From NCBI RefSeq assembly GCF_006345805.1, contig NC_043010.1:39122001-39186000 (forward strand): 64,000 nt of DNA, in the 5' to 3' direction. Source of the stretch: Octopus sinensis. Its lineage: Eukaryota. Position numbers and translations under genes: made by a program. Below, one piece after another: positions 21,396 through 25,000 of this stretch (the stretch's first letter is position 1; each line of letters opens with the position of its first letter). Below the pieces are notes generated by a model, which did not search any database, was not told where the DNA came from, and worked only from the letters and a program-made list of their open reading frames with translations.

Positions 21396-22054
21396 ATAAT
21401 TAATCAATATAGGGTGGCAAAAAATTTTGTAGAATTTTTTTGCCACCAGCGGCCTAGTGGGAAAAAATAATAGTCATAGACCATTTTTAAGTTCAACATC
21501 ACAATCAAGGACGGCCATAATAGGCCATTCACCCACTAGAAATAACAGCCAAAAGCTTCAACCGCAAAATAACATCAATTCCGTAAACCAGGAGAAAATT
21601 AACATTTACCCTGTAATTTCTTATACGATGCACCGTTTCATCTACTGTTTAATGGTAAACTAACCTGATTAAATTAAATCAAGCCAATCTACCATAGGCC
21701 CTTAGATTCATCAGTAAGAAATAGCCAAGTCGGAACAGATATTTTTCACGAGGCATTCCCGTCCCTGCCTCGGCAATATCTGACCTAAAATTTTCAAATC
21801 ATCGCACTCGCGTCAAATTTATCGGCAGCAAATAAATATAAGCCGCCGATTCCATTACGGAATTAACCAGAAAATTCATAATTAATCAATATAGGGTGGC
21901 AAAAAATTTTGTAGAATTTTTTTGCCACCAGCGGCCTAGTGGGAAAAAATTAAATAGTCATAGACCATTTTTAAGTTCAACATCACAATCAAGGAACGGC
22001 CATAATAGGCCATTGACCCACTAGAAATAACAGCCAAAAGCTTCAACCGCAAAA
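21396..22054 (-). repeat. Inverted segment (~1.35 units) of the hammerhead tandem array
   Basis: Reverse complement of the unit repeated in 22053-25786. It contains an intact hammerhead at 21616-21722 on the minus strand. Confidence 0.95.
21616..21722 (-). ncRNA. Type I hammerhead ribozyme (inverted array copy)
   Basis: TCATCAG at 21708-21714 is CUGAUGA on the minus strand. Stems I, II, III and the GUA triplet are intact. Confidence 0.85.
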
Positions 22055-25000
22055 ATTTGGCGCGAGTGCGATGATTTGAAAATTTTAGGTCAGATATTGC
22101 CGAGGCAGGGACGGGAATGCCTCGTGAAAAATATATGTTCCGACTTGGCTATTTCTTACGATGAATCTAAGGGCTATGGTAGATTGGCTTGATTTAATTT
22201 AATCAGGTAGTTTACCATTAAACAGTAGATTAAACGGTGCATCGTATAAGAAATTACAGGGTAAATGTTTTTTAATTTTCTCCTGGTTTACGGAATTGAT
22301 GTTATTTTGCGGTTGAAGCTTTTGGCTGTTATTTCTAGTGGGTGAATGGCCTATTATGGCCGTTCCTTGATTGTGATGTTGAACTTAAAAATGGTCTATG
22401 ACTATTTAATTTTTTCCCACTAGGCCGCTGGTGGCAAAAAAATTCTACAAAATTTTTTGCCACCCTATATTGGATTAATTATGAATTTTCTGGTTAATTC
22501 CGTAATGGAATCGGCGGCTTATATTTATTTGCTGCCGATAAATTTGGCGCGCGTGCGATGATTTGAAAATTTTAGGTCAGATATTGCCGAGGCAGGGACG
22601 GGAATGCCTCGTGAAAAATATATGTTCCGACTTGGCTATTTCTTACTGATGAATCTAAGGCCTATGGTAGATTGGCTTGATTTAATTTAATCAGGTTAGT
22701 TTACCATTAAACAGTAGATGAAACGGTGCATCGTATAAGAAATTACGGGTAAATGTTTTTTAATTTTCTCCTGGTTTACGGAATTGATGTTATTTTGCGG
22801 TTGAAGCTTTTGGCTGTTATTTCTAGTGGGTCAATGGCCTATTATGGCCGTTCCTTGATTGTGATGTTGAACTTAAAAATGGTCTATGTCTATTTAATTT
22901 TTTCCCACTAGGCCGCTGGTGGCAAAAAAATCTACAAAATTTTTTGCCACCCTATATGATTACTTATGAATTTTCTGGTTAATTCCGTAATGGAATCGGC
23001 GGATTATATTTATTTGCTGCCGATAAATTTGGCGCGCGTGCGATGATTTGAAAATTTTAGGTCAGATATTGCCGAGGCAGGTACGGGAATGCCTCGTGAA
23101 AAATATCTGTTCCGACTTGGCTATTTCTTACTGATGAATCTAAGGGCCTATGGTAGATTGGCTTGATTTATTTAATCAGGTTAGTTACCATTAAACAGTA
23201 GATGAAACGGTGCATCGTATAGAAATTACAGGGTAAATGTTTTTTAATTTTCTCCTGGTTTACGAATTGATGTTATTTTGCGGTTGAAGCTTTTGGCTGT
23301 TATTTCTAGTGGGTGAATGGCCTATTATGGCCGTTCCTTGATTGTGATGTTGAACTTAAAAATGGTCTATGACTATTTAATTTTTTCCCACTAGGCCGCT
23401 GGTGGCAAAAAAATTCTACAAAATTTTTTGCCACCCTATATTGATTAATTATGAATTTTCTGGTTAATTCCGTAATGGAATCGGCGGCTTATATTTATTT
23501 GCTGCCGATAAATTTGGCGCGCGTGCGATGATTTGAAAATTTTAGGTCAGATATTGCCGAGGCAGGGACGGGAATGCCTCGTGAAAAATATATGTTCCGA
23601 CTTGGCTATTTCTTACTGATGAATCTAAGGGCCTATGGTAGATTGGCTTGATTTAATTTAATCAGGTTAGTTTACCATTAAACAGTAGATGAAACGGTGC
23701 ATCGTATAAGAAATTACAGGGTAAATGTTTTTTAATTTTCTCCTGGTTTACGGAATTGATGTTATTTTGCGGTTGAAGCTTTTGGCTGTTATTTCTAGTG
23801 GGTGAATGGCCTATTATGGCGTTCCTTGATTGTGATGTTGAACTTAAAAATGGTCTATGACTATTTACTTTTTTCCCACTAGGCCGCTGGTGGCAAAAAA
23901 ATTCTACAAAATTTTTTGCCACCCTATATTGATTACTTATGAATTTTCTGGTTATTCCGTAATGGAATCGGCGGATTATATTTATTTGCTGCCGATAAAT
24001 TTGGCGCGCGTGCGATGATTTGAAAATTTTAGGTCAGATTTGCCGAGGCAGGTACGGGAATGCCTCGTGAAAAATATCTGTTCCGACTTGGCTATTTCTT
24101 ACTGATGAATCTAAGGGCCTATGGTAGATTGGCTTGATTTAATTTAATCAGGTTAGTTTACCATTAAACAGTAGATGAAACGGTGCATCGTATAAGAAAT
24201 TACAGGGTAAATGTTTTTTAATTTTCTCCTGGTTTACGGAATTGATGTTATTTTGCGGTTGAAGCTTTTGGCTGTTATTTCTAGTGGGTGAATGGCCTAT
24301 TATGGCCGTTCCTTGATTGTGATGTTGAACTTAAAAATGGTCTATGACTATTTAATTTTTTCCCACTAGGCCGCTGGTGGCAAAAAAATTCTACAAAATT
24401 TTTTGCCACCCTATATTGATTAATTATGAATTTTCTGGTTAATTCCGTAATGGAATCGGCGGCTTATATTTATTTGCTGCCGATAAATTTGGCGCGCGTG
24501 CGATGATTTGAAAATTTTAGGTCAGATATTGCCGAGGCAGGGACGGGAATGCCTCGTGAAAAATATATGTTCCGACTTGGCTATTTCTTACTGATGAATC
24601 TAAGGGCCTATGGTAGATTGGCTTGATTTAATTTAATCAGGTTAGTTTACCATTAAACAGTAGATGAACGGTGCATCGTATAAGAAATTACAGGGTAAAT
24701 GTTTTTTAATTTTCTCCTGGTTTACGGAATTGATGTTATTTTGCGGTTGAAGCTTTTGGCTGTTATTTCTAGTGGGTGAATGGCCTATTATGGCCGTTCC
24801 TTGATTGTGATGTTGAACTTAAAAATGGTCTATGACTATTTACTTTTTTCCCACTAGGCCGCTGGTGGCAAAAAAAATTCTACAAAATTTTTTGGCACCC
24901 TATATTGATTAATTATGAATTTTCTGGTTAATTCCGTAATGGAATCGGCGGCTTATATTTATTTGCTGCCGATAAATTTGGCGCGCGTGCGATGATTTGA

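What the first reader, a model, noticed from the sequence alone, without database searches (positions are those of the whole stretch)
21396..22700. Inverted 5' segment and (TA)n target: twin-priming-like insertion of the ribozyme multimer
Seen: 21396-22054 is antisense to the rest and joins it through a 2-nt AA overlap (22053-22054). In unit coordinates, the outer end of the inverted piece (..gattaattat) lies only ~58 nt upstream of where the forward piece starts (aaatttggcg). Both outer ends merge into (TA)n through short AT microhomology. Established: this geometry is the signature of twin priming in target-primed reverse transcription, and inverted 5' segments are common in PLE insertions. 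Inference: the array arrived through an RNA multimer rather than growing as an ordinary satellite.
Basis: partly seen in the sequence, partly recalled or inferred. Interest (0 to 1): 0.7.

Follow-up and report, generated by a model that had tools for sequence, protein, structure and literature searches.

The report
Two-armed retrozyme, two fixed priming sites
This is one copy of a protein-free, ribozyme-motif repeat scattered through this animal genome's TA repeats as back-to-back arms that almost always start at two different fixed points 104 bases apart, which likely records a Penelope-type enzyme copying the RNA from both ends of a DNA break, and does not fit the twin priming known from human LINE-1.

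Summary
The inversion is real: a 659-nt antisense arm (21396-22054) joins a 3,734-nt forward array of 488-nt hammerhead units through AA, inside (TA)n. It is the normal form of a dispersed family (2,680 exact core matches), so it is not an assembly quirk. The twin-priming argument fails. The 58-nt offset is chance: across 103 inverted insertions the joint lies within 20 nt of the other arm's start in 12 (16.6 expected), and in 0 of 14 held-out ones; L1 medians are 14.5-22 nt. Instead the arms start at two fixed sites, A (unit 327) and B (431). Two-armed insertions were A+B in 127 cases, same-type in 1, other in 4. In short insertions both arms stop at the same template position (21 of 37; 6.0 expected), which suggests one RNA copied twice. 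This is the Penelope 'inverted copy plus tail' pattern in a non-LTR retrozyme, with a 104-nt tail. Part of the array's length probably grew after insertion. This scan noted two fixed ends earlier for other retrozyme families of this genome.

The parts
21262..21395 (.). (TA)n tract, left half of the likely target
   Evidence: TRF period 2, 68 copies
21396..22054 (-). B arm: antisense, starts at fixed site B (unit 431), ends at unit 255 of the preceding unit; 659 nt
21396..21497 (-). 'Tail': unit 328-431, the stretch between sites A and B, terminal only on this side of the insertion
   Evidence: read
21617..21721 (-). Type I hammerhead motif of the B arm (CUGAUGA, long stem II, GAAAC, GUA; predicted cut at 21624)
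   Evidence: fold energy
22053..22054 (.). Head-to-head joint with AA microhomology
   Evidence: short-read contig across it
22053..25786 (+). A arm: 7.7 tandem units of about 488 nt (starts 22053, 22540, 23025, 23510, 23997, 24485, 24974, 25460), ending at fixed site A (unit 327)
22152..22253 (+). Hammerhead motif of the first forward unit, core damaged (CGAUGA, UAAA; mutation or assembly error)
22639..25662 (+). Hammerhead motifs with full core at 22639-22742, 23124-23225, 23609-23713, 24095-24199, 25073-25176, 25559-25662; the unit at 24485 lacks one A of GAAA
   Evidence: for the 24485 unit
25787..25898 (.). (TA)n tract, right half of the likely target

Best explanation
The locus is a two-armed insertion of a non-coding 488-nt hammerhead-motif repeat in (TA)n, one arm starting at unit 327 (A) and the other at 431 (B), likely made by a borrowed Penelope-like RT-endonuclease that would nick both strands and prime one cDNA from each end, likely on the same RNA. 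Shown: the fixed ends, the one-A-one-B pairing, head-to-head orientation, microhomology at the joints, the same variant haplotype in both arms, and read-through of the ribozyme site. Inferred: (1) EN cuts both strands of (TA)n; (2) one 3' end starts at A and the other at B, chosen by RNA recognition rather than by pairing; (3) the B polymerase follows through the A site by strand displacement; (4) on a short or broken RNA both stop at about the same place, while on an uncut multimer or circle, as here, they stop independently; (5) the two cDNA 3' ends are joined by microhomology end joining; (6) some units are duplicated later.
For: A+B in 127 two-armed insertions (123 after removing 4 duplicates), same-type 1, other 4. 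All 38 insertions found without end selection end at 324-332 or 428-435, as do all 24 held-out loci (read by eye). TA match at A and B is only 2-3 nt, while 4-5-nt matches at unit 81, 198, 419-420 and 472-473 are not used as starts. B arm = A arm + 104 +/- 15 nt in 24 of 103 (2.6 by permutation); where both stop within 30 nt, A runs further in 19, equal in 7, B further in 3. Arms of one locus differ at 0.67% of sites against 2.85% between loci. Overlap of 3 nt or more in 27 of 60 clean joints, 6% expected. In vitro the anole PLE protein cuts and extends both strands of AT-rich DNA, starts at two internal RNA sites that bound the tail, is predicted to be a dimer and prefers uncut RNA (PMC11167929). 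An inverted 5'-truncated copy, a tail at one end and (TA)n targets are PLE traits (PMC8557442).
Against: No partner enzyme was identified: the one PLE family examined has its own hammerhead and a different end layout. Shared stopping is weak or absent in long insertions like this one (11 of 66 against 7.1, p = 0.09; 0 of 25 by arm length in the BLAST set; 1 of 14 held-out in the same register). The own B arm was the strictly closest in only 21 of 59 loci (12 ties, 26 others closer), so same source is shown, same molecule is not. The window's two arms differ at 8 of 544 in-register sites and share no variant there. PAc showed no difference in start site between strands. No RNA, cleavage or empty allele was observed.
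Confidence: 0.65

Rival explanations
1. Same two fixed sites, but each arm is copied from a separate RNA held by an asymmetric enzyme dimer; both RNAs come from one source locus.
For: Explains long insertions with unrelated stops, like this window, and internal breaks present in one arm only where the other arm covers the same stretch (L055, L096, L098, L118, L119, L142; read).
Against: Does not explain shared stops at many different positions in short insertions (21 of 37 against 6.0 by a permutation that keeps hot spots), nor breaks mirrored in both arms (L153, L167).
Confidence: 0.13
2. One long cDNA plus fold-back: the A cDNA snaps back and is copied toward the target, then joins a B-primed tail cDNA or is resolved by the endonuclease (a tail origin suggested in PMC8557442).
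For: Fits the near-symmetric joints, the A-further skew (19 against 3), palindromic overlaps (AAGCTT, CTAG, AAAATTTT) and the mirrored breaks.
Against: Cannot make a B arm longer than A + 104, seen in 31 of 103, unless units were added later; breaks are not mirrored in 6 loci against 2 mirrored.
Confidence: 0.12
3. L1-type twin priming: the second target end anneals by chance inside the RNA, just upstream of where the first cDNA stops.
For: Both ends look primed; joints carry microhomology; arm lengths correlate (Spearman 0.45) as in L1. In this window the offset is 58 nt.
Against: The second start is fixed. Adjacency within 20 nt: 12 of 103 (16.6 expected) and 0 of 14; within 60 nt: 46 of 103 (44.7) and 5 of 14 (6.1), whereas L1 median deletions and duplications are 14.5 and 22 bp (10.1101/2024.08.27.596794). 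No poly(A) end. Arms overlap on the template by hundreds of nt.
Confidence: 0.06
4. A satellite with a later DNA inversion, or a chimeric or fold-back read artefact.
For: Private period-2 variants show local unit duplication; no long read was checked; the assembly has many indel errors and some duplicated blocks (L083 = L084).
Against: Random inversions or chimeras would not give fixed A and B ends in (TA)n at 123 independent loci; other head-to-head joints stand in short-read contigs of three runs and one contig crosses this joint.
Confidence: 0.03

Closest known systems
Metazoan non-LTR retrozymes (PMC7229834, passages read; bioRxiv 10.64898/2026.07.22.740005, part 1 of 5 and passages read)
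   Same: Tandem non-coding units with a type I hammerhead, low GC (about 37%), dispersed monomers to multimers, proposed to depend on PLEs.
   Different: Unit 488 nt against about 170-400 nt; 68 nt between CUGAUGA and GAAA, no Rfam hit; the two-armed, fixed-end insertion form did not appear in the passages read (0 hits for 'inverted' in PMC7229834).
Penelope-like elements: inverted 5'-truncated copy and 30-40-bp tail (PMC8557442, passages); PAc two internal RT starts (PMC11167929, parts 1-2 of 4)
   Same: (TA)n or AT-rich target, inverted truncated arm, tail at one end, two start sites, both strands extended, uncut RNA as template.
   Different: No ORF; tail 104 nt; pairing is nearly obligatory A+B and short insertions share a stop, neither stated in what I read.
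L1 twin priming (PMC2912911 and bioRxiv 10.1101/2024.08.27.596794, passages)
   Same: Two target ends prime on RNA; head-to-head product; microhomology at the joint; correlated arm lengths.
   Different: Both starts are internal and fixed, no poly(A), no adjacency of joint and second start, arms overlap on the template.

Membership tests
Non-LTR retrozyme | Tandem non-coding units each with a type I hammerhead | tested here: met
   Full core in 7 of 9 copies; forced hammerhead fold -33.1 against -34.9 kcal/mol free; stem I U-A to C-G and stem II A-U to G-C swaps among 115 arms (few events). No ORF over 123 codons in the array. No Rfam hit.
Non-LTR retrozyme | Dispersed over many loci, low GC | tested here: met
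   2,680 exact core matches
Non-LTR retrozyme | Monomer about 170-400 nt | tested here: not met
   488 nt; a reported range rather than a strict criterion
Non-LTR retrozyme | Expressed, self-cleaving, circular RNA | not testable with these tools
   No listed holder on record as RNA; no cleavage assay
PLE-type insertion | Inverted 5'-truncated copy and a tail at one end, in (TA)n | tested here: met
   tail 104 nt rather than 30-40
PLE-type insertion | End region shared with an autonomous PLE of the host | tested here: inconclusive
   One PLE family examined; the shared 19-nt motif lies in a passenger sister repeat, not at its ends
L1-type twin priming | Second primer anneals at a variable internal site by chance complementarity | tested here: not met
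   Fixed at 426-435 or 321-332
L1-type twin priming | Forward arm ends next to the second priming site | tested here: not met
   against the medians
L1-type twin priming | Microhomology at the inversion joint | tested here: met
   mean 2.7 nt against 0.7 in 60 clean joints of 103
L1-type twin priming | Target-site duplication and empty allele | not testable with these tools
   Hidden in (TA)n; only short contigs available

The most novel reading that the evidence does not exclude
Penelope-type transposition is obligately double-primed and asymmetric: a dimeric RT starts both target ends on one RNA at two fixed sites, the trailing B polymerase displaces the leading A cDNA, and inverted pLTRs and the one-sided tail are the direct product. 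This family records that cycle in hundreds of insertions.
Probability: 0.5. Interest if true: 0.72.

Novelty: new variant of a known kind. Interest (0 to 1): 0.52.

Why it matters
How PLEs make their tandem and inverted ends and the one-sided tail is called undefined in PMC8557442, and the in vitro work stops at initiation. This family gives countable rules (one A plus one B, no twin-priming adjacency, shared stops with A leading) and a short RNA with two mapped start sites, so the existing PAc-type assay can test the model directly. It also ties retrozymes to PLE enzymes by insertion scars. The class of element and the qualitative pattern are known, and this single locus is an ordinary member of its family.

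Tried and rejected
Rfam: no hit at gathering score, only noise at E up to 5. A DNA search with the A-B region returned no candidates, and a hammerhead pattern with too short a gap found nothing; neither is informative. Partner search through a shared 19-nt motif led to a sister repeat riding in a PLE 3' region, and to unrelated common repeats. Run-off at the ribozyme cut: inner ends are enriched at unit 195-225 (30 of 206, 13.1 under a crude uniform null), but 80 of 103 A arms and 75 of 103 B arms pass the cut and a T run at 213-218 could explain the excess; not accepted as a main route. Simultaneous stopping (equal arm lengths) is weak: 5 against 3.4 within 20 nt, 14 against 8.2 within 50 nt. 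Empty allele and long reads: not available. The own-findings look-up by sequence was empty. Print searches for the rule: searches found only the papers cited; subscription papers (older Penelope work) were not searched, and I read no supplements (Fig. S2 of PMC11167929 and the closed bioRxiv supplements may bear on novelty). 10.1101/2024.12.14.628481 (passages) added nothing.

Full report
OBSERVATION. The window holds a 488-nt tandem array at 22053-25786 (7.7 copies) and an antisense piece at 21396-22054 covering unit 255-488 and 1-431, joined by AA, between (TA)n tracts. Each full unit carries a type I hammerhead motif with a long stem II: full core in 7 of 9 copies, near-optimal when forced, with two paired swaps in family variants. 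Rfam does not list it. No ORF over 123 codons lies in the array. Cleavage was not tested.

IS THE INVERSION REAL? One short-read contig of run X2 crosses the joint exactly (15 + 27 nt, under the tool's bridging rule, and X2 may be the source sample); none was listed in X1, X3 or X5. Other head-to-head joints of the family stand in contigs of X1, X2 and X5. The stronger argument is the family itself.

FAMILY SURVEY. The hammerhead core has 2,680 exact matches in the 2.72-Gb genome; 385 exact ends at unit 327 (site A) and 140 at unit 431 (site B) run into TA. Four samples. (i) BLAST hits without end selection: 38 insertions at 37 loci including the window (two overlapping stretches dropped, two joined): 28 A+B (3 with very short B arms), 1 other, 9 one-armed; all 38 end at A or B. 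(ii) 59 of the 385 A ends: 48 with an inverted B arm, 1 A/A (printed twice), 1 other, 9 with no inversion seen. (iii) 41 loci of the 140 B ends, 43 insertions: 36 with an inverted A arm, 0 B/B, 2 other, 5 none. (iv) A held-out set of 24 loci chosen by the core motif: 15 two-armed, all A+B, and 9 one-armed, all ending at A or B (read by eye). Total 127 A+B (123 without the duplicates L083, L084, second L138, second L155), 1 same-type, 4 other. The arms point outward with their 5' ends inward. The window is the common case: B on the left, A on the right.

TWIN PRIMING TESTED. In L1 the second end anneals by chance and the first cDNA stops beside it, with median deletions of 14.5 bp and duplications of 22 bp (10.1101/2024.08.27.596794, passages; model in PMC2912911, passages). 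Of 107 measurable joints 103 remained after removing duplicates. The joint lay within 20 nt of the other arm's start in 12 (16.6 under a uniform null) and within 60 nt in 46 (44.7); held-out 0 and 5 of 14 (2.3 and 6.1). The 58 nt is therefore uninformative. The starts are not picked by pairing with TA: 2-3 nt at A and B, while 92 positions of the unit match 2 nt or more and the best 4-5-nt matches are unused. Microhomology at the joints is real family-wide (27 of 60 clean joints with 3 nt or more, 6% expected; the other 43 joints carry inserted bases), but 2 nt alone arises in 17% of random joins.

WHAT THE JOINTS SHOW INSTEAD. The inner ends coincide with each other: within 25 nt in 32 of 103 (11.9 by permutation), 27 of them in the same unit register. 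This holds for short insertions (21 of 37 against 6.0) and hardly for long ones (11 of 66 against 7.1, p = 0.09; 1 of 14 held-out in register). Among 29 shared stops A runs further in 19, B in 3. Arms of one locus differ at 0.67% against 2.85% between loci; 226 of 267 family variants at sites covered three or more times are in all copies of a locus, and 18 of 190 private variants are in every copy. That shows one source; it does not prove one molecule (nearest-neighbour test 21 best, 12 ties, 26 others closer, of 59). Internal breaks are mirrored in both arms in 2 loci and not mirrored in 6 (read). Most arms pass the ribozyme site (80 and 75 of 103), so the template was mostly uncut multimer or circle; I cannot tell which.

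ARRAY LENGTH. In the window one variant is in 7 of 8 forward units but not in the first unit or the B arm, and others alternate with period 2; two of these variants were checked and occur in only one other arm each among 102 loci. Duplicated insertions with the same joint differ by two units (L155; L218). Some unit duplication after insertion is therefore likely, though systematic consensus errors or a mixed template are not excluded. Seven to eight units is not evidence for a seven-to-eight-unit RNA.

MECHANISM AND COMPARISON. The pattern matches Penelope-like elements: inverted truncated copy, 30-40-bp tail at one end, (TA)n targets (PMC8557442, passages), and a protein that cuts and extends both strands and starts at two internal sites bounding the tail (PMC11167929, parts 1-2 of 4). 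The element works like a non-LTR retrozyme (PMC7229834, passages; 10.64898/2026.07.22.740005, part 1 and passages) and meets the sequence criteria except unit size; RNA criteria are untested. I infer double priming at two fixed sites by a borrowed PLE enzyme, likely on one RNA (0.65). Rivals: two RNAs (0.13), fold-back plus tail (0.12), L1-type twin priming (0.06), satellite inversion or artefact (0.03). The partner enzyme was not found.

NOVELTY. The class and the qualitative architecture are known. The strict pairing, the 104-nt tail, the failed adjacency test and the shared stops were not in the papers found; older subscription papers and all supplements were not seen. Unreviewed notes of this scan report two fixed ends and double priming for other retrozyme families of this genome. 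I had the two-site reading before that call (note), and those notes are not independent evidence. Verdict: real feature, first reading partly right, new variant of a known kind, interest 0.52.

Noticed in passing
L178, L193 (G000:C1:67.23 Mb, 111.83 Mb): A sister repeat (spacing about 565 nt) shares a 19-nt motif and has ends 51 and 149 nt after it, a 98-nt tail like the 104-nt one here.
   Followed up: partly
L081:2640-2860; L174, L184, L191: A short two-armed copy of that sister repeat rides in the low-complexity 3' region of a young PLE-like family (P0001, 85 matches).
   Followed up: partly
L204, L213, upstream of the P0001 ORF: That family has its own type I hammerhead motif; an inverted arm in L198 begins about 20 nt after it (read by eye).
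   Followed up: no
L155, L218, L138: Whole insertions duplicated in tandem, two with arm lengths differing by two units; alleles assembled side by side or real duplications.
   Followed up: partly
L218:2448-5104: The element is interrupted at unit 185, inside the hammerhead core, by sequence with a LINE-like ORF fragment (label recalled).
   Followed up: no
L082-L084 (G000:C1:81.9-82.2 Mb): The same insertion three times beside LINE-like ORFs; L083 and L084 are 100% identical over 5 kb, possibly an assembly duplicate.
   Followed up: partly
L109, L101, L074, L124 joints: Stuttered template repeats at the joints (AATCTACC three times in L109) and an 85-nt foreign A-rich insert in L124.
   Followed up: no
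L110: The only A/A insertion found.
   Followed up: no
window 44725-45093; 29356-30043: A 183-nt two-copy repeat and a 690-nt (TTC)n tract.
   Followed up: no
window 25907-26320: An imperfect inverted repeat right of the array (ggaatggtcattttgccagttt ... aaactggcaaaatgaccattcc), seen by eye; possibly a MITE.
   Followed up: no
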